Below, piece after piece: positions 51,229 through 59,680 of a stretch of DNA of 64,000 nt (position 1 is the stretch's first letter; the number at the start of each line of letters is the position of its first letter). Origin of the DNA: a virus; the IMG/VR virus record IMGVR_UViG_3300025598_000021. One strand, given 5' to 3'. A model generated the notes under the pieces. The model was not told the DNA's origin. It saw nothing but the letters and a program-made list of their open reading frames with translations, and did no database searches. The position numbers were made by a program, and so were the translations under genes.

Positions 51229-51255
51229 AGATATAAATATCTAAAAAGGTAATAG

Positions 51256-51597
51256 ATGGCACAGAACCAAAGACTAAGTTCACTCGGTGACGCGTTAAGT
51301 ACTGCGCAGTCTAACGGTCAGCTGTTAGCCGCTAATGGCGCCGGTGGATACTACTGGACCACACCTGGTGGTATACTAACTGTTAATACTACTCCACCCG
51401 CATCTGCTAACAGCGCGGACATGTGGCTGAACCCTTCTGATGGTATACTGTACACTTATATAAATACTGGATCGAGCAGTCAATGGATAGAATATGGTCC
51501 TAATGAGTTATATACTCCGACATACGTAGTCGATGGTGGCGCTGCTAATACGATCTATCAATTAACGCCATTGGTTGGCGGAGGAGCTGCTGGATGA
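51256..51597 (+). CDS. Small fibre adaptor protein
   Basis: MAQNQRL N-terminus; DMWLNPSDGILYTY...QWIE; late promoter at 51232-51239. Confidence 0.65.
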   Translation: MAQNQRLSSLGDALSTAQSNGQLLAANGAGGYYWTTPGGILTVNTTPPASANSADMWLNPSDGILYTYINTGSSSQWIEYGPNELYTPTYVVDGGAANTIYQLTPLVGGGAAG

Positions 51598-52621: not shown

Positions 52622-53929
52622 ATGAGTACTTTGTCTGTAACAACTATCACTTCAGCAAACGGAACGACCGATCTCACTCTATCTTCTGGCAATACGACCG
52701 CCGGACAGATGGTGGTGTTGTCGAACGGTGCCGGCGTGGTGCTAAAGAGCAACGCGACGTCTACTTCTCTTGGCGTATATTCTAACGGCACCATGACTCT
52801 GACTGGCAATCTAGTAGCCAGTAACATATCGTTTGGCACCAACACGAGCTTCGCGGCCAACGTAGGTATCGGCACGGCAAATCCAGCCGTCACGCTAGAC
52901 ATGAGTGCGAAGACAGACTCGATTCTTCTACCCATCGGTAACACTGCTAACAGAAACATTCTCACGTCCAACGGACAGCTCAGGTTCAACAACGACGTCG
53001 CTAGAAAAGAGTACTGCACTGCGGGTTTTTGGATAAACGAGCAGAACGGATATACGCAGGTCACCGGTAAGACTAGAGTAGCATTTCAGTACACTGGAGC
53101 TCTACAGTCTTGGACTATACCTTCTAACGTCAACTACATCTTCGTGAAGTTGTGGGGTGCAGGCGGTGGTGGTGGCTCATACGGCAGTTGGAGACAGGGT
53201 GCGACCGGCGGCGGTGGTGGATATTCTGAGGGAATAGTTCCGGTGGTCCCCGGTCAGACCCTGTACATTCGCGTCGGTCAGAACGGCTATGCCAGATGGT
53301 CTTCAAATAAAGCGTATCCGGACGGCGGCGCTTCTTCTACTTCTACAGGCGATAACCAGTACTGCGGAGCCGGTGGCGGCTCTACGAGCATCGCGACGCC
53401 AAACGTCAACGCAAATAACTGGTGTATGTACGCCGGAGGCGGTGGCGGTGGCGGATCCGTAAACGGTTGGGGTAGAAATCCTGGTGGCGCCGGCGGCGGT
53501 CTAACAGGTGAAGACGGTTTTACTGAGTTAACGTCCTATACACCATACGCGTACGTAGGCAAGGCAGGAACGCAGTCTGCAGGTGGAGCAGGTGGTACCG
53601 GCGGTACCGCAGTAGGTGGGGCTGGTTCAGCGAACCAAGGTGGTACTACTCAGAACGGTAACAGCTACGGTGGCGGTGGTGGCGGCGGCTACTACGGCGG
53701 TGGGTCTGGATCTTACGCAGGCTCTTCAATGGCTGGCGGCGGAGGTGGATCAGGCTACATTCATCCATCGATCATCAGAGGCGTGACTCTTACTGGCATT
53801 AGAGAATATCCAGCTATGCCTAACGACCCAGACGCTATAGCGTATTCACTTAACGGCATTAATAGGATAGGCGTCGGTGGCGACGAGGGTTCTAACGGCG
53901 GCTATGGTCTAGCCATAGTATACTACTGA
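52622..53929 (+). CDS. Glycine-rich adhesin (polyglycine-sandwich type)
   Basis: VKLWGAGGGGG and many GGGGG runs separated by variable loops. Confidence 0.75.
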   Translation: MSTLSVTTITSANGTTDLTLSSGNTTAGQMVVLSNGAGVVLKSNATSTSLGVYSNGTMTLTGNLVASNISFGTNTSFAANVGIGTANPAVTLDMSAKTDSILLPIGNTANRNILTSNGQLRFNNDVARKEYCTAGFWINEQNGYTQVTGKTRVAFQYTGALQSWTIPSNVNYIFVKLWGAGGGGGSYGSWRQGATGGGGGYSEGIVPVVPGQTLYIRVGQNGYARWSSNKAYPDGGASSTSTGDNQYCGAGGGSTSIATPNVNANNWCMYAGGGGGGGSVNGWGRNPGGAGGGLTGEDGFTELTSYTPYAYVGKAGTQSAGGAGGTGGTAVGGAGSANQGGTTQNGNSYGGGGGGGYYGGGSGSYAGSSMAGGGGGSGYIHPSIIRGVTLTGIREYPAMPNDPDAIAYSLNGINRIGVGGDEGSNGGYGLAIVYY

Positions 53930-54273: not shown

Positions 54274-54936
54274 ATGTCTACGTTACAAGTCGCCAATATA
54301 TATTTTGAATCTTCTGGCAACAACAGGATCCAGTATCTTGGATCTAATAACTATTCTTTTTATGCCGGCGGCTTGCCTACACTCACTGTCAACACGTCCA
54401 CAGTACTGTTTACAGCTTCTATGTCGTTTACGAGCATCGGTGCAAACACAGCCAGCGCTAATACGCTTACAGCAAACTCGTTTACCGTCGTGAATAACTA
54501 CTTTGTAGCTAACGGCTGGGTAGGACTAGGCAACTCGACTCCGATAGATAAGTTCTACGTGCAGGGTAACATCGTCGCATCCGGCGACGTGACTACCTCA
54601 TACTCAGACGAGAGACTAAAGACTCTGCTCTATAAGATCGAGCGTCCTCTAGAAAAGATAAATAGTCTAAACGGCTGGGCCTATAGCCCATCTGCTCTAT
54701 CTCTGAAGTTAAATCCTGAACAGAAGAATGAAATAAAACTAGGTGTTATAGCGCAAGAAGTCGAGAGCGTACTGCCTGAGATAGTTTCTATCGCTCCTTT
54801 TGATAGAAACGCTAATGGAGAGTCTGTCTCTGGCGATAAATACCTTACGGTTAGTTATGATAGAATTGTACCTGTTTTAATTGAGGCTATAAAAGAACTG
54901 ACTTCTAGAATAGAGAAATTAGAATCTAGGAGGTAG
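54274..54936 (+). CDS. Short fibre with C-terminal intramolecular chaperone (peptidase S74-like)
   Basis: YSDERLK...GVIAQEVESVLPEIV...YDRIVPVLIEAIKEL. Confidence 0.85.
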   Translation: MSTLQVANIYFESSGNNRIQYLGSNNYSFYAGGLPTLTVNTSTVLFTASMSFTSIGANTASANTLTANSFTVVNNYFVANGWVGLGNSTPIDKFYVQGNIVASGDVTTSYSDERLKTLLYKIERPLEKINSLNGWAYSPSALSLKLNPEQKNEIKLGVIAQEVESVLPEIVSIAPFDRNANGESVSGDKYLTVSYDRIVPVLIEAIKELTSRIEKLESRR

Positions 54937-54938
54937 CT

Positions 54939-55112
54939 ATGGCGTTTAAGATTGGTTCGACTACTATAGTAAATAATAGTATTCAGATACCATGGTCTCA
55001 GATCGATCTTTCGTCGTATGGAAACTATATCAATTCAGTATATTTTACCGGTTCTGATAAGATCATCAACGTTTATAACTCCGGTTCAGTCTTATACATC
55101 ATAAGGACTTAA
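54939..55112 (+). CDS. Short peptide paralog A (57 aa; not in ORF track)
   Basis: AGGAGG SD; MAFKIGSTTIVNNSIQIPWSQIDLSSYGNYINSVYFTGSDKIINVYNSGSVLYIIRT. Confidence 0.8.
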   Translation: MAFKIGSTTIVNNSIQIPWSQIDLSSYGNYINSVYFTGSDKIINVYNSGSVLYIIRT

Positions 55113-55116
55113 TAGA

Positions 55117-55293
55117 ATGGCTTTTAAGATCGGAAGCACTGTCGTTATCGATAATTCCGGAAACGTTCCATGGTCTACTGTAGGATCCATTCCTTCTGGT
55201 ACCGTGATATCTATATCGGCGCCGAGCAGCGGCGGTGGCGTATATAGAGTAAGTGGGTGGGACGGTTACAATCTGACTTTCTATAGATCATAG
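55117..55293 (+). CDS. Short peptide paralog B (58 aa; not in ORF track)
   Basis: AAGGA SD; MAFKIGSTVVIDNSGNVPWSTVGSIPSGTVISISAPSSGGGVYRVSGWDGYNLTFYRS. Confidence 0.8.
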   Translation: MAFKIGSTVVIDNSGNVPWSTVGSIPSGTVISISAPSSGGGVYRVSGWDGYNLTFYRS

Positions 55294-55304
55294 GTCAACA
55301 CACG

Positions 55305-55562
55305 ATGGCGTTAAAAGTAAACACGACTACGGTCTTCAACAACAGCGCAAAGATTCCATACACGCAGGTGAGTGGTTTTCCACAGCTTGTGACTTCTGCT
55401 AGTTCTACTCCTACAGGTGATGGCACTAATCCGATCGGTGGCACAGGCACCTACTGCTACGCTTTCAGCTTCAGTGGTGGATCGCTAGTCGCTACATTTG
55501 ATACTAACTGTGCATGCGTTTGTGCGTGCTGCTGTTGTTGCGCCTGCTGTTGTAACTGTTAG
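55305..55562 (+). CDS. Cys-rich peptide paralog C, putative radical SAM substrate
   Basis: Related N-terminus MALKVNTTTVFNNSAKIPYTQV; C-terminus NCACVCACCCCCACCCNC. Confidence 0.8.
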   Translation: MALKVNTTTVFNNSAKIPYTQVSGFPQLVTSASSTPTGDGTNPIGGTGTYCYAFSFSGGSLVATFDTNCACVCACCCCCACCCNC

Positions 55563-55570
55563 TTAGAGTT

Positions 55571-56458
55571 ATGGCAACTAATTTAAAGATATTCACATAT
55601 GGTTCGAACAATCCATCAATAGCGTCGATTACAGAATCATCTAATGGAAATATTGAAATAAGAATTAAGGCGGTCGATCAGCTATCTTATGACATGCCTA
55701 ATGAAGACGCGTGCAACTATATTTGGAACTTCAATCCAAAAGAATTATTAAAGTCTAAAGACCAATGTCCAAATAAAGCAGGAGTCTTTGATCTAGTAGG
55801 TTTTTCGACCAAAGACATAGTGAAGGGGACACCGATAGTTACTCCTCCGCTAGTCAATAGACTTAAGACGTACTATCAGTCTAACTTTAAAAGACTAGAG
55901 AGTAATGACTTCTTTGGCTCAATAGATATAAATCCTAAACACACAAATATATCTCTGCGCATGCAGGCCAACTGCAAGATAATTTCAAACCTATCATATG
56001 ATACCTTTGATTATGTAAAAGACAATGGTTATACGCAAGCACTTGGCACGTCTATATTAATTACGCCGCCGTCGAATAAGCACCAAGGAAACACCACGCC
56101 AGTGCCACAAGACGTGTATCCTTTTACTCTTTCATACAGTGGTCCTACGCAGATACCACTAAGTGGCGGAATATTTAATATATCATTCGACTTTGATAAT
56201 CATGGAATAAAAGGTAAAGGTGGTAAGAACAAGAATCCAGGTAAAAAACCAGGTCAAGAGTATCATGACTTGTGCGACTACAACGTAGTATATGCCAACG
56301 CTGATAAAGGTAAGATCGATCCTTCTTGTAAGATAATAAATAAAAAAGGAAGTATAAGCTTTGATCCTACTGGGCTGTCAGTAGGAGACACAGTTACGGT
56401 AGATATTGGAGTGCACTGGTTTCTACTATCAATAAGAATACAGTTTCAAATAATATAA
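55571..56458 (+). CDS. Hypothetical protein of the radical SAM cassette (beta-rich C-terminus)
   Basis: 295 aa ORF between the Cys-rich peptide and the radical SAM gene; ISFDPTGLSVGDTVTVDIG. Confidence 0.75.
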   Translation: MATNLKIFTYGSNNPSIASITESSNGNIEIRIKAVDQLSYDMPNEDACNYIWNFNPKELLKSKDQCPNKAGVFDLVGFSTKDIVKGTPIVTPPLVNRLKTYYQSNFKRLESNDFFGSIDINPKHTNISLRMQANCKIISNLSYDTFDYVKDNGYTQALGTSILITPPSNKHQGNTTPVPQDVYPFTLSYSGPTQIPLSGGIFNISFDFDNHGIKGKGGKNKNPGKKPGQEYHDLCDYNVVYANADKGKIDPSCKIINKKGSISFDPTGLSVGDTVTVDIGVHWFLLSIRIQFQII

Positions 56459-56475
56459 ATGATAAGGATTTTATT

Positions 56476-57792
56476 ATGTTTGAATTGATTATGATAGATC
56501 AAGAAAATAAAAGACGTTCTATATTTTATGATCCACATAAGTCTACCGTCTCTGATAAAGATGGAAAAGATATACTAATAACTGATGTTAAACCTCATTC
56601 TTGCTTTAAGAAAGCAATAGGTATATCGCCGACAAATCCTGGCTCAAAGGTATCCAAATTAAGTAAAATTCGTATCCAGTTAGGACTCGGGTGTAACTAT
56701 TCATGCTCGTACTGTCTTCAGAAAGATCAAATTAAAGATTCAACAAAGACAAGTCTTAGAGACGCTGAAATATTCATGAAGAATCTAGACAAGTGGGTAG
56801 AAGGAGCTCCAGCAGAGATTGAGTTCTGGGGAGGTGAGCCTCTTCTTTATTGGAATAAGATTAAGTTTCTTCTTGAAAAATTAACTGAAAGATTTCCGGA
56901 AGTTTCATATCTTATTATCACCAACGGAAGCTTGATAGATGACGATTTTATTGAGACCGTAGAGAAATATAACATTAGAGTCGCTATATCTCATGATGGT
57001 CCTGGTCAGTATAACCGAGGACCAGATCCATTAGACAATCCTATACAGTTTGAGATGATTAAGAAGTTCTTCGATCGTAGAAAAAACAACATGAGTTTTA
57101 ACTCAGTGATCACCCCTTCTAATATGAATCTCGATAAGATAGAACAGTTCTTTAAATCAAAGTTTGGTCAAGAAGCGAGAATAAGTTTTGAAGGTGTAGT
57201 GATAAACTACGACGACGGTGAGTCAAATACTTTTACTACTGAGCAGTATAATGAACTTTCTAAGAACGTAGCGATGTCTTGTATGAGACCATTTGAGAAT
57301 CTACCTAATACGTTCCAGATAAAGATTCGCGAATTCATGAAGACTCTACAGAATAAGTTAAGTTCTGATTCTGTATTTCAGAAGTGCGGAATGGACAGAG
57401 AAGACTATATAGCCGTAGATCTATTAGGTAACGTCATGACGTGTCAGAATACTGGTTCTACTGGAAAGCATAGAATTGGACACGTCTATTCGCTAGATAA
57501 AGTTAAACTTAATACGTCGTGGCATTGGTCGCAGAGAGAAGAATGCTCCCACTGTCCCGTGCTGCAGCTATGTGCAGGATCGTGCATGTATGTTGAGGGT
57601 CCAAGCTGGTATCACTCGTGCAACAATGAATACTACTACAACATGGGAATACTCGCAGGAGCGATGTATCATATGACTGGAATGATCTTAGAAGAAGTAA
57701 AAGGAGAGACCTGGAGGCCGGATCCAGCTGACTATGGCGTTACTATTAAAGATCATAGTCAAAATATAGTTGATGGACTTTTAGAAGTATGA
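56476..57792 (+). CDS. Radical SAM enzyme with SPASM domain
   Basis: CNYSCSYC (CxxxCxxC), FWGGEPLL, ISHDGP; KCG...GNVMTC...CSHCPVLQLCAGSC (Cx2Cx5Cx3C)...SC. Confidence 0.93.
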   Translation: MFELIMIDQENKRRSIFYDPHKSTVSDKDGKDILITDVKPHSCFKKAIGISPTNPGSKVSKLSKIRIQLGLGCNYSCSYCLQKDQIKDSTKTSLRDAEIFMKNLDKWVEGAPAEIEFWGGEPLLYWNKIKFLLEKLTERFPEVSYLIITNGSLIDDDFIETVEKYNIRVAISHDGPGQYNRGPDPLDNPIQFEMIKKFFDRRKNNMSFNSVITPSNMNLDKIEQFFKSKFGQEARISFEGVVINYDDGESNTFTTEQYNELSKNVAMSCMRPFENLPNTFQIKIREFMKTLQNKLSSDSVFQKCGMDREDYIAVDLLGNVMTCQNTGSTGKHRIGHVYSLDKVKLNTSWHWSQREECSHCPVLQLCAGSCMYVEGPSWYHSCNNEYYYNMGILAGAMYHMTGMILEEVKGETWRPDPADYGVTIKDHSQNIVDGLLEV

Positions 57793-58535
57793 GACAGCTA
57801 AAGATAGATGAGACCGTTTGTCTTGATGATTTAGTAGATGTAGAAGAACTTAAGTCTCTTCATGATAGATTATGTGTGTCTATAGCCAATGCGTACGACG
57901 ACGGAAGAGTTTCAGTACAGTCTCTTGGAAATTTGCTGTCTGAGAGATATCCATATCCTAGCATACTAGATAAATTTATTCAATTTGGAAAAGCTAAAGT
58001 AAATATTCCTAAAGAAATAGACAATAATGACAAGCTATTAAGATACATAATGTTCACTGAAAAGACTACCGGAATAGCTAGTGTAATAAGTATATTTAAT
58101 TATAAAATCAGCGATGATCATAAAATTAGTAAAAACTATAAAGAATTTTATTCTATAATAGAGTGGATAAAGAAACAGGATCTATACTCAGAACTTATAC
58201 AGTGTAATCTAGTATTAAGTCAGAGCGGTGAACCAACACCTATTCACGATCATCCTAGACCAAAGAGTTTTCCAAATAGCTTTGAAGAAATAGACGAAGA
58301 GACAAGATTTTCTTTATGGATAAGACTTAACACTGATAGAAAATTATTCATGTACGATCATAAAACAAAAACTAAACACTATATAAAAGACAAAGATGGC
58401 GGTGGACTGGTGTTCTATTGGGATTCTAGCAGCTTCCATGGTGCCGATCCGTCATGGAACGCCACGTACGCGTTCGTGATAACGGGTATTCCATCAAAAA
58501 AACTGTTTGATTTTATTGATCAAAAACTCAAATAA
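57789..58535 (+). CDS. Putative cupin/2OG-Fe(II)-type oxygenase
   Basis: PTPIHDH...WDSSSFHG metal-ligand pattern in a beta-barrel-like context; ATGA-coupled to the radical SAM gene. Confidence 0.55.
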   Translation: MRQLKIDETVCLDDLVDVEELKSLHDRLCVSIANAYDDGRVSVQSLGNLLSERYPYPSILDKFIQFGKAKVNIPKEIDNNDKLLRYIMFTEKTTGIASVISIFNYKISDDHKISKNYKEFYSIIEWIKKQDLYSELIQCNLVLSQSGEPTPIHDHPRPKSFPNSFEEIDEETRFSLWIRLNTDRKLFMYDHKTKTKHYIKDKDGGGLVFYWDSSSFHGADPSWNATYAFVITGIPSKKLFDFIDQKLK

Positions 58536-59633: not shown

Positions 59634-59680
59634 ACCCTAAAACGTATAAATAAGATTATACCAAAACCAGGAAAAAAGCA

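What the first reader, a model, noticed from the sequence alone, without database searches (positions are those of the whole stretch)
55305..55562. Strict (CX)8C register in the peptide C-terminus
The last 17 residues CACVCACCCCCACCCNC hold 12 Cys. Every odd position is Cys and the even positions vary (A,V,A,C,C,A,C,N). Codons mix TGT and TGC, so this is protein-level selection and not a DNA microsatellite. Alternating Cys would line one face of a beta strand, which suits iterative crosslinking or, in a trimer, a stack of metal or Fe-S sites.
Basis: partly seen in the sequence, partly recalled or inferred. Interest (0 to 1): 0.75.

Follow-up and report, generated by a model that had tools for sequence, protein, structure and literature searches.

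The report
Cysteine-ladder tail on phage fibre protein
A small tail-fibre-type protein of a freshwater T4-like phage ends in a strict Cys-X-Cys-X ladder, and the same ladder recurs beside the same radical-SAM enzyme at the C-terminal tips of tail-fibre proteins in over a hundred phages and prophages, which points to an undescribed enzymatic modification of the phage's host-recognition gear.

Summary
ORF 55305-55562 (+, 85 aa) ends in 17 residues with Cys at all 9 odd positions, 12 Cys in total. The codons are mixed (TGT x7, TGC x5), there is no DNA tandem repeat, and about 1e-9 such tracts are expected by chance in the window.

The register is conserved. Of 142 related loci anchored on the neighbouring radical SAM/SPASM enzyme, 119 carry a same-strand upstream ORF with a (C-X)n-C tract. 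In 94 of 121 distinct cases the tract lies within 10 residues of the stop. In about 8 more it sits directly before a self-cleaving Hint domain.

Carriers are either small proteins like this one or true tail fibres of 300-730 aa. An Ig-like partner, the family of 55571-56458, co-occurs.

My reading is that the ladder is the C-terminal substrate tag of the phage maturase on virion fibre proteins, most likely for thioether crosslinking. A metal-thiolate stack in the trimer is not excluded. The chemistry is untested.

I found no paper and no curated family that describes this. This scan had already met the same theme on other DNA (e1-5336184, e1-5409011). The window's tract is an outlier of the family: it has 9 in-register Cys, the most found in either sample, and A/V/C at X where relatives have N/D.

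The parts
54274..54936 (+). Tail-fibre protein (220 aa) with a C-terminal S74 intramolecular-chaperone domain. It lies directly upstream of the mini-protein trio.
   Evidence: PF13884 Peptidase_S74, 38.9 bits against a cutoff of 22. Many PHROG tail-fibre families match. The same gene order is seen in relatives L009, L166 and L171.
54939..55112 (+). Ladder-less paralogue (57 aa) that shares the N-terminal fibre-repeat module.
   Evidence: It aligns with the carrier family and ends exactly where the ladder would begin. Its sequence is among the hits of the exhaustive profile search, as P0224.
55117..55293 (+). Ladder-less paralogue (58 aa) of the same family.
   Evidence: phmmer hits to ladder-bearing carriers of Rhodobacteraceae prophages down to E 2.8e-10. 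Alignment A3.
55305..55562 (+). Ladder carrier (85 aa): an N-terminal fibre-repeat module of about 25 aa, a beta-rich body, then Asn followed by the Cys ladder.
   Evidence: ORF. Homologues L009 (E 3.6e-17), L011, L016, L039 and L010. 137 cluster representatives in the exhaustive search. Homotrimer model ipSAE 0.58 against a best control of 0.00.
55509..55559 (+). The (C-X)8-C ladder, 17 residues with 12 Cys, ending at the stop codon and preceded by the family-typical Asn.
   Evidence: In the family, the residue before the ladder is Asn in 85 of 101 cases. The last in-register Cys is the C-terminal residue in 49 of 94 cases.
55571..56458 (+). Conserved partner 'M' (295 aa): tandem Ig-like beta-sandwiches, with no enzyme fold detected.
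   Evidence: No Pfam, PHROG or NCBIfam hit. jackhmmer finds the family in 119 ORFs of the related loci, including RSP15 ORF047. AF2 model pLDDT 71, with only Ig/invasin-like matches in the PDB and uncharacterised phage proteins in BFVD.
56476..57792 (+). Radical SAM/SPASM enzyme (438 aa), the presumed maturase of the ladder.
   Evidence: PF04055, 50.1 bits against a cutoff of 29.5. phrog_1802, E 3.9e-59. Invariant C73/C77/C80 and seven further invariant Cys including CX2CX5CX3C at 357-370. Best NCBIfam hits are PapB, SCIFF and CcpM maturases, all far below their cutoffs. Nearest solved chains are 8vpo, anSME 4k37 and CteB 5wgg.
57789..58535 (+). Gene overlapping the rSAM stop (248 aa). Possibly a divergent double-stranded beta-helix (Asp/Asn hydroxylase-like) oxygenase. 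Unresolved.
   Evidence: It overlaps the rSAM gene by 4 nt. No Pfam hit and no sequence homologue. ESM Atlas lead to viral Asp_Arg_Hydrox/2OG clusters: features 0.95, TM 0.59-0.63. hhalign to the oxygenase families of other loci is negative, and the AF2 single-sequence model is unusable.
51232..51239 (+). T4-type late-promoter-like TATAAATA. This is the nearest such site but one upstream of the cassette; another lies at 51459.
   Evidence: 16 sites in the window against 3.6 expected, and 0 of 100 shuffles reach 16. No further site lies between 51466 and 59645, so the cassette sits inside a late structural transcription unit. This is inference.
59645..59652 (+). Next TATAAATA late-promoter-like site, downstream of the cassette and before fibre gene 59681.

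Best explanation
The 85-aa ORF is a real small virion-fibre-type protein of a T4-like freshwater myovirus. Its C-terminal (Cys-X)n-Cys ladder is a conserved substrate tag for the phage's own radical SAM/SPASM enzyme, encoded two genes downstream. An Ig-like partner protein (55571-56458) travels with the pair. What is shown: the tag, the enzyme family and the partner family co-occur, in this order and on one strand, in over a hundred phage and prophage tail-fibre modules. The tag always sits at the extreme C-terminus or just before a Hint domain, whose self-cleavage would make it the C-terminus. What is inferred: a free, unfolded C-terminal tail of an otherwise folded, probably trimeric, fibre protein threads into the enzyme. 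The enzyme abstracts hydrogen atoms and joins the Cys sulfurs to nearby carbons as thioethers of sactionine/ranthionine type, within or between chains. This would give a reduction-proof covalent staple at the fibre tip, made in the cytoplasm where disulfides cannot form. My odds: about 0.75 that the ladder is the enzyme's substrate on a structural protein, and about 0.4 that the product is thioether crosslinks.
For: Association, enzyme to ladder: 119 of 142 loci anchored on rSAM homologues (34-59% identity; IMG/VR and GTDB genomes) hold a same-strand ORF with (C.)2+C within 3.5 kb upstream. Control: ladders of 7 or more residues number 134 upstream on the same strand, 5 upstream antisense, 0 downstream on the same strand and 1 downstream antisense, over similar amounts of DNA. 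Association, ladder to enzyme: of the 7 carriers looked up from a profile search not anchored on the enzyme, 3 lay on contigs with enough downstream DNA, and all 3 (L166, L169, L171) have the rSAM downstream. Position: 94 of 121 distinct ladders lie within 10 residues of the stop, and 49 end on the last Cys. About 8 are followed at once by a Hint-like domain starting CF(P/L)xG, with weak Vint/Hom_end_hint Pfam hits and the JWF gp028 annotation. Carriers are structural: long carriers hit PHROG tail-fibre families. The peptide's N-terminal module is a repeat unit inside a 1601-aa fibre that has six Phage_fiber_2 repeats and an S74 end. The cassette lies between fibre genes in a baseplate/fibre region, with late-promoter motifs on either side. 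Homotrimer model: score 0.58, best of 3 controls 0.00. That mark was reached by 20 of 30 proteins solved as pairs of one chain and by 1 of 23 solved as single chains. The runs agree in at least 80% of contacts and the partner pLDDT is at least 68. My own alignment and three copies were used, unlike the calibration, so this supports binding but does not show it. Enzyme type: CX3CX2C plus a full 7-Cys SPASM set. The nearest curated families are thioether-forming maturases: PapB 95.6 bits, SCIFF 63.5, CcpM 61.8, QhpD 57. The nearest structures include CteB. Chemical precedent: PapB joins Cys to the carbon alpha to a carboxylate, and can use a peptide's C-terminal carboxylate (PMC12373016). That would explain why the tag must be C-terminal and why X is often Asp or Asn.
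Against: No chemistry has been observed. Every NCBIfam hit is far below its family cutoff, so the reaction type is extrapolated. X is variable (N 54%, A 16%, D 14%, R 7%), and in this window X is A/V/C with no Asp or Glu, so a PapB-like carboxylate-directed reaction could use only the C-terminal carboxylate. About 18 of 142 loci have the enzyme but no ladder in the fetched flank, and some phages carry a second rSAM paralogue without one. The closest relative's tail (L009) keeps only the first two Cys in register. No RiPP-recognition element was identified in the enzyme; I did not test for one. The trimer model gives no confident contacts for residues 69-85.
Confidence: 0.6

Rival explanations
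1. The ladder is a metal-thiolate site. In the trimeric fibre the in-register Cys point to the axis and bind a column of metal ions or Fe-S units, as the His-X-His repeats of the T4 gp37 needle bind iron. The rSAM enzyme would then have a different or only auxiliary role.
For: Alternation is what a beta-strand needs to put every Cys on one face (inference). The trimer of the body is supported by the model. CXC and CC runs are typical of metallothionein-type clusters, and HxH iron sites are known in T4-type fibre tips (established knowledge, not tested here). This window's tract is unusually Cys-dense, with X = C three times, against 1 in about 420 X positions in the family.
Against: It does not explain the tight two-way linkage with an rSAM/SPASM enzyme of the peptide-maturase type. 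It does not explain the strict C-terminal placement or the Hint-fused forms. Many ladders have only 3-4 Cys. The model gives no confident interface for the ladder.
Confidence: 0.15
2. The enzyme modifies the Cys without crosslinking them. Examples would be oxidation to formylglycine as in anaerobic sulfatase maturases, or another Cys-centred change. This would create a reactive or unusual chemical surface at the fibre tip.
For: The only invariant feature is Cys at alternate positions, while X varies widely. anSME is among the nearest solved relatives (4k37, E 2.5e-8), and JWF's enzyme was annotated as such by its depositors.
Against: The anSME family score is 55.7 against a cutoff of 349. The sulfatase motif (C/S-x-P/A-x-R) is absent from the ladders. 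The best curated hits are thioether formers.
Confidence: 0.12
3. The 85-aa product is a diffusible RiPP precursor, with the conserved N-terminus as leader and the Cys-rich C-terminus as core. The phage would make a sacti- or ranthipeptide-like bioactive peptide, not a virion part.
For: The size and layout, a conserved N-terminal 25 aa followed by a variable body and a Cys-rich end, together with an adjacent rSAM/SPASM enzyme, resemble RiPP cassettes.
Against: There is no protease or exporter in the cassette. The same tag ends true tail fibres that lack this N-terminus. The 'leader' is a repeat unit of a large tail fibre and also heads the ladder-less paralogues. The location is inside the late fibre cluster. 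A homotrimer is predicted.
Confidence: 0.07
4. The ladder simply forms interchain disulfides after lysis, a 'disulfide zipper'. The rSAM enzyme acts on another neighbour, such as the Ig-like protein or a fibre.
For: Dense Cys would oxidise spontaneously outside the cell (inference). The Ig-like partner is as conserved as the ladder.
Against: The partner family has no conserved Cys or other obvious target; only G247 is invariant. The enzyme's co-occurrence follows the ladder across very different carriers.
Confidence: 0.05

Closest known systems
Ranthipeptide systems: PapA/PapB (freyrasin) and NxxcA/NxxcB
   Same: An rSAM/SPASM enzyme next to a precursor with repeated Cys motifs near the C-terminus. 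PapB is the best NCBIfam hit. PapB links Cys S to the carbon alpha to a carboxylate, including a C-terminal one (PMC12373016). (N-C)n is formally an overlapping array of N-x-x-C motifs, the NxxcB target as I recall it. That last point is a lead from memory.
   Different: The score is 95.6 against a cutoff of 340. The motif is C-X-C, not C-X3-D. There is no Asp or Glu in this window's tract. Carriers are virion fibre proteins of up to 730 aa. There is no exporter or protease, and an Ig-like partner is present instead.
SCIFF/CteB and sactipeptide maturases
   Same: A Cys-rich C-terminal core and a SPASM enzyme. CteB (5wgg) is among the nearest solved relatives. Acceptor residues are diverse, as X is here.
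   Different: TIGR03974 scores 63.5 against a cutoff of 425. SCIFF precursors are about 45-aa peptides of anaerobes, not phage structural proteins. An alternating register is not a SCIFF feature.
QhpD/QhpC (quinohemoprotein amine dehydrogenase gamma subunit)
   Same: A precedent for an rSAM/SPASM enzyme that installs several Cys-to-Asp/Glu thioethers in a small (about 80 aa) structural protein subunit, not in a secreted peptide (established knowledge). TIGR03906 hits at 57 bits.
   Different: The hit is far below the cutoff of 453. The context is a periplasmic enzyme, with no ladder register and no phage link.
His-X-His metal ladders of T4-type fibre and spike tips (gp37 needle, gp12, gp5-type spikes)
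   Same: An alternating ligand-X repeat at the C-terminal tip of a trimeric phage fibre in a T4-like virus (established knowledge; a resemblance only).
   Different: Cys replaces His, a dedicated enzyme is attached, and metal binding was not tested here.
Earlier finding of this scan: e1-5336184 (cyanophage (Cys-Lys)n fibre-type protein with rSAM and oxygenases)
   Same: The same theme, an alternating-Cys tail beside an rSAM/SPASM enzyme behind tail-fibre genes. A (C-K)n variant also appears in my profile search as P0254.
   Different: It is a different phage and a different X residue. Here the tract is short, strictly terminal and uses A/V/C at X.

Membership tests
Radical SAM superfamily (PF04055) | CX3CX2C cluster motif and a Pfam score above the gathering cutoff | tested here: met
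   50.1 bits against 29.5. C73, C77 and C80 are invariant in 39 homologues.
SPASM-domain rSAM enzymes | C-terminal seven-Cys set including CX2CX5CX3C for two auxiliary 4Fe-4S clusters | tested here: met
   Invariant C304, C323, C357, C360, C366, C370 and C382. TIGR04085 SPASM is met by homologue L095, 30.8 against 27.
PapB ranthipeptide maturase (NF047865) | Equivalog score of at least 340 bits | tested here: not met
   95.6 bits. It resembles this family but is not a member.
PapB-type ranthipeptide precursor | Repeated C-X3-D/E motifs | tested here: not met
   The tract has no D or E. The family register is C-X-C.
SCIFF maturase (TIGR03974) / CcpM (TIGR04068) | Equivalog score of at least 425 / 500 | tested here: not met
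   63.5 and 61.8 bits.
Anaerobic sulfatase maturase (TIGR03942) | Equivalog score of at least 349, and a substrate motif C/S-x-P/A-x-R | tested here: not met
   55.7 bits. The motif is absent from the ladders.
Sacti-/ranthipeptide-type product | Thioether between Cys S and an alpha, beta or gamma carbon, shown chemically | not testable with these tools
   Needs MS or NMR of the modified protein.
Phage tail-fibre component | Homology to fibre modules, location in the fibre cluster, and trimerisation | tested here: inconclusive
   The N-terminal module repeats inside a fibre with Phage_fiber_2 repeats and an S74 end. The ORF lies between fibre genes. The trimer model passes, 0.58 against 0.00. 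The peptide has no direct Pfam or PHROG hit, and there are no virion proteomics data.
Hint-fused ladder carriers (not this window) | A Hint domain starting with Cys directly after the ladder | tested here: met
   CF(P/L)xG follows the ladder in L001, L012, L016, L028, L065, L077, L081 and L125. Weak Vint/Hom_end_hint hits, below cutoff. The depositors' annotation of JWF gp028 agrees. The window's own carrier ends at a stop instead.
His-X-His metal-binding fibre needles (T4 gp37 type) | HxH repeats coordinating metal on the trimer axis | tested here: not met
   There is no HxH in the peptide. Metal binding by Cys is not testable here.

The most novel reading that the evidence does not exclude
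Phages use a private radical-SAM enzyme to install covalent bonds in the Cys-ladder tips of their receptor-binding fibres. These could be inter-chain thioethers, or a new Cys chemistry that builds a metal-thiolate needle. It would be the first enzyme-installed post-translational crosslink known in a phage host-recognition protein. A Hint-domain variant would manufacture the required C-terminus by self-cleavage.
Probability: 0.35. Interest if true: 0.88.

Novelty: new variant of a known kind. Interest (0 to 1): 0.72.

Why it matters
Radical SAM/SPASM maturases are known for making small secreted peptides and a few enzyme cofactor subunits. Here the same kind of enzyme is tied, in over a hundred phage and prophage tail-fibre modules, to a C-terminal Cys ladder on the proteins that touch the host.

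If the ladder is crosslinked or otherwise modified, that would be a new layer of virion maturation. It would bear on fibre stability, host range and phage engineering, and it would open a new substrate class, folded proteins with a terminal tag, for a much-studied enzyme family.

The system is directly testable. Cultured phages (Achromobacter phage JWF, Ralstonia phage RSP15) and prophages of cultured Rhodoplanes, Bradyrhizobium and Rhodobacteraceae carry it. The tag is also routinely missed or left unannotated by gene callers.

Tried and rejected
- **DNA microsatellite:** rejected. TRF finds nothing and the codons are mixed.
- **Close relatives among cultured phages:** none by DNA. The peptide gives only chance tblastn hits.
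- **Word-based homologue search with the peptide:** no candidates. Homologues were found only through locus context and a profile.
- **Single-sequence scan of IMG/VR with the rSAM:** nothing. The alignment-based scan worked.
- **D248 (57789-58535) as an oxygenase:** unresolved.
  - No Pfam hit even at E 1 and no homologues.
  - jackhmmer and hhalign against the TIGR02466-like, Asp_Arg_Hydrox-like and RSP15-ORF046-like families of other loci were negative.
  - The AF2 single-sequence model has pLDDT 35 and is unusable.
  - Only the ESM Atlas gives a DSBH/Asp-Asn-hydroxylase-like lead.
- **Idea that the accessory 2OG-oxygenase-like genes hydroxylate Asn/Asp of the ladder:** not supported. They occur in 53 of 78 loci with N/D-rich ladders and in 17 of 23 with N/D-poor ladders.
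- **M295 as an enzyme or known chaperone:** only Ig-like folds in the PDB, and uncharacterised phage proteins in BFVD.
- **His ladder next to Cys ladder in L015** (three H-V repeats then C-T repeats): most likely one hexanucleotide DNA repeat read in two frames. It is a single case and was not used.
- **Expression check:** No whole genome is held.
- **Literature:** eight full-text searches on radical SAM, SPASM or ranthipeptide together with tail fibre, phage or cysteine, plus the motif NCNCNC, found no description. Iyer et al. 2010 (PMC2938197) only notes dioxygenase clusters near tail-collar proteins.
- **NCBIfam:** no model for carriers, partner or enzyme.

Full report
**1. The observation**

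- Cys occupies all nine odd positions, and the even positions are A, V, A, C, C, A, C, N.
- The 12 Cys use TGT seven times and TGC five times.
- Tandem Repeats Finder sees no repeat even at its lowest threshold.
- With 2.75% Cys in the six-frame translation, about 1e-9 such tracts are expected in the window.
- The only other (C.)3C match in all six frames is a 7-residue tract in a 29-aa non-ORF.
- The DNA is identical in two other public assemblies from different projects.
- One of those assemblies has gene calls for the 57- and 58-aa neighbours but none for this ORF.

**2. Surroundings**

The window is a T4-like myovirus. It has a gp6-type baseplate wedge (phrog_219, E 1e-154), gp32 (phrog_224) and a gp5-type hub. 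The rSAM protein is seen on contigs of up to 161 kb.

The ORF sits in a dense cluster of fibre genes. The order on the + strand is as follows:

| Coordinates | Product | Evidence |
|---|---|---|
| 54274-54936 | Fibre ending in an S74 chaperone domain | |
| 54939-55112 | 57-aa mini-protein, no ladder | |
| 55117-55293 | 58-aa mini-protein, no ladder | |
| 55305-55562 | 85-aa mini-protein with the ladder | |
| 55571-56458 | 295-aa protein with no family hit | |
| 56476-57792 | Radical SAM enzyme | |
| 57789-58535 | 248-aa gene overlapping the rSAM stop | |

More fibre genes follow. The three mini-proteins share about 25 N-terminal residues, and the two shorter ones stop exactly where the ladder of the third begins.

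The T4 late-promoter motif TATAAATA is enriched in the window, 16 sites against 3.6 expected. Sites lie on both sides of the cassette, at 51232 and 51459 upstream and 59645 downstream, with none inside it. I infer late, structural co-expression from this.

**3. The enzyme**

The enzyme has the CX3CX2C motif and seven further invariant Cys, including CX2CX5CX3C. That is a full SPASM domain.
- Its best curated relatives are thioether-forming peptide maturases: PapB 95.6 bits, SCIFF 63.5, CcpM 61.8 and QhpD 57. Anaerobic sulfatase maturase scores 55.7.
- All of these are far below the family cutoffs of 340 to 500 bits.
- The nearest solved structures are 8vpo, anSME and CteB.

So it is a distinct family within the SPASM peptide and protein maturases. 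The family is large: more than 2,260 proteins at E 1e-3 or better. At least 592 stretches in IMG/VR and 345 stretches in the scanned GTDB genomes encode a relative.

**4. Is the register conserved?**

I fetched 160 loci around homologues of the enzyme (34-59% identical) from viral contigs and from bacterial genomes. The genomes are prophages of Rhodobacteraceae, Bradyrhizobium, Variovorax, Rhodoplanes, Magnetospirillum and others. I added two cultured phages, Achromobacter phage JWF and Ralstonia phage RSP15.
- In 119 of the 142 loci with enough upstream DNA, a same-strand ORF within 3.5 kb upstream holds a (C-X)n-C tract.
- As a control, tracts of 7 or more residues number 134 upstream on the same strand, 5 upstream antisense, 0 downstream on the same strand and 1 downstream antisense.
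- Of 121 distinct tracts, 94 lie within 10 residues of the stop, and 49 of those end on the last Cys.
- About eight more are followed at once by a Hint-type domain that begins CF(P/L)xG. N-terminal self-cleavage of that domain would leave the ladder as the C-terminus. This is inference from how Hint domains work.
- X is Asn in 54% of positions, Ala in 16%, Asp in 14% and Arg in 7%.
- The residue before the first Cys is Asn in 85 of 101 tracts, as it is in this window.
- Tracts hold 3 to 9 in-register Cys.
- Three of the 23 'empty' loci have irregular ladders. About 18 have none in the fetched flank.

**5. The reverse test**

A profile of the small carriers (alignment A3) was searched without any word index against 1.84 billion cluster representatives. 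It returned 137 proteins.
- Of the 117 small ones, 76 end in an in-register ladder. Most of the rest are ladder-less paralogues, fragments or irregular variants.
- About a dozen proteins of 240-470 aa are ladder-plus-Hint forms.
- I looked up seven of these carriers on their contigs. Most contigs are too short to judge.
- The three with enough downstream DNA (L166, L169, L171) all carry the rSAM enzyme, and five loci carry the Ig-like partner.
- L166 repeats the window's architecture gene for gene and has an eight-Cys ladder with A/V/D at X.

**6. What the carriers are**

Long carriers (284-726 aa) hit PHROG tail-fibre families, some strongly, for example E 2e-66. The window peptide's N-terminal module is nearly the same as a unit that recurs six times in a 1601-aa protein. 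That protein has six Phage_fiber_2 repeats and an S74 end. The module is therefore a fibre building block, not a RiPP leader.

A three-copy model of the peptide passed its controls.
- The score was 0.58 and the best of 3 controls was 0.00.
- That mark was reached by 20 of 30 proteins solved as pairs of one chain and by 1 of 23 solved as single chains.
- The runs agree in at least 80% of contacts, and the partner pLDDT is at least 68.
- My own alignment and three copies were used, unlike the calibration.
- The confident contacts span residues 12-68 and stop just before the ladder. The model therefore says nothing about how the Cys pack.

**7. The partner proteins**

The 295-aa protein belongs to a family found in 119 ORFs of these loci. 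It folds as tandem Ig-like sandwiches (pLDDT 71). It matches only Ig/invasin-type domains in the PDB and uncharacterised phage proteins in BFVD. Its role is open; it might dock or present the substrate, or be a structural part.

A 2OG-oxygenase-like family (weak 2OG-FeII_Oxy_5 and TIGR02466 hits) occurs in 85 loci. Its presence does not follow the Asn/Asp content of the ladders.

The window's own 248-aa gene has no detectable sequence relatives. The only lead is a language-model and structure match to viral Asp/Asn-hydroxylase-like clusters.

**8. Mechanism**

Shown: the tag, the enzyme and the partner are linked in both directions. The tag is C-terminal. The carriers are fibre proteins.

Inferred: the enzyme acts on the free tail of an otherwise folded fibre protein. 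The most likely chemistry is Cys-to-carbon thioether formation, because the nearest characterised relatives all do this. PapB, the best hit, links Cys to the carbon next to a carboxylate and can use a peptide's C-terminal carboxylate (PMC12373016). That would explain both the terminal position and the frequent Asp and Asn.

Such bonds can be made in the reducing cytoplasm where virions assemble, unlike disulfides. The rivals are a metal-thiolate column in the trimer, a non-crosslinking Cys modification, a diffusible RiPP, and plain disulfides. Each is weighed in its own section of this report.

**9. Comparison and novelty**

The system works like a ranthi- or sactipeptide system, or like QhpD/QhpC. 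It fails the membership cutoffs of all those families and uses a different motif.

I found no paper and no NCBIfam, Pfam or PHROG family describing the tag, the partner or the pairing. This scan has met the same theme twice before on other DNA (e1-5336184, e1-5409011). My tests here were made independently and agree with those findings.

Within the family, this window's tract is an extreme. It has nine in-register Cys, the maximum seen in either sample. X is never Asp and only once Asn. X is Cys three times, against 1 in about 420 X positions elsewhere.

**10. Verdict**

I rate it a new variant of a known kind, of high interest, and directly testable in cultured phages.

Noticed in passing
L164:1818-2096 (same phage, ENA assembly ERZ27271999): The public gene call lists the 57- and 58-aa paralogues but skips the 85-aa Cys-tailed ORF, although the DNA is identical. 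Ladder carriers are probably under-called in databases, which would hide the family from protein-only searches.
   Followed up: partly
L003 and L008 (both from IMGVR_UViG_3300025382_000007); also L005/L006: One viral contig carries two paralogous rSAM enzymes (59% and 55% identical to the window's). One has the ladder and the Ig-like partner upstream. The other has unrelated neighbours and no ladder, so the family may have a second substrate.
   Followed up: no
L015:169-450: An ORF reads three His-Val repeats directly followed by Cys-Thr and Cys-Lys repeats. This may be one hexanucleotide DNA repeat read in two frames (a frameshift or assembly slip) and not a true His-plus-Cys ladder.
   Followed up: no
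P0125 (4676 aa) and P0122 (1601 aa), hits of the carrier profile: The roughly 25-50-residue N-terminal module of the mini-proteins recurs 28 times (weakly) in a 4676-aa protein with no Pfam hit. It recurs 6 times in a 1601-aa tail fibre, each time next to a Phage_fiber_2 repeat.
   Followed up: partly
P0254 (252 aa): A carrier relative has a long (Cys-Lys/Gln/Ala)n tract that is not terminal, with 121 residues following. It resembles the cyanophage (Cys-Lys)n protein of earlier finding e1-5336184.
   Followed up: no
window 1-64000: The T4 late-promoter motif TATAAATA occurs 16 times against 3.6 expected, 14 of them on the + strand ahead of structural genes.
   Followed up: partly
85 of the related loci, e.g. 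L095:4331-5071 and L095:5348-5992: A family with weak 2OG-FeII_Oxy_5/TIGR02466 similarity occurs once or twice per locus beside the rSAM enzyme (130 ORFs). Other loci have Asp_Arg_Hydrox-like genes instead (L021). Its presence does not track the Asn/Asp content of the ladder.
   Followed up: partly
window 52622-53929: A fibre-cluster protein carries an ALK/LTK-type glycine-rich domain (PF12810, 72 bits), an unusual domain for a phage fibre gene.
   Followed up: no
L010/L083 (Rhodoplanes tepidamans prophage) and L012: These loci hold three tandem small carriers in a row, each with its own ladder, directly upstream of one rSAM gene. L012 adds a fourth carrier with a Hint domain.
   Followed up: no
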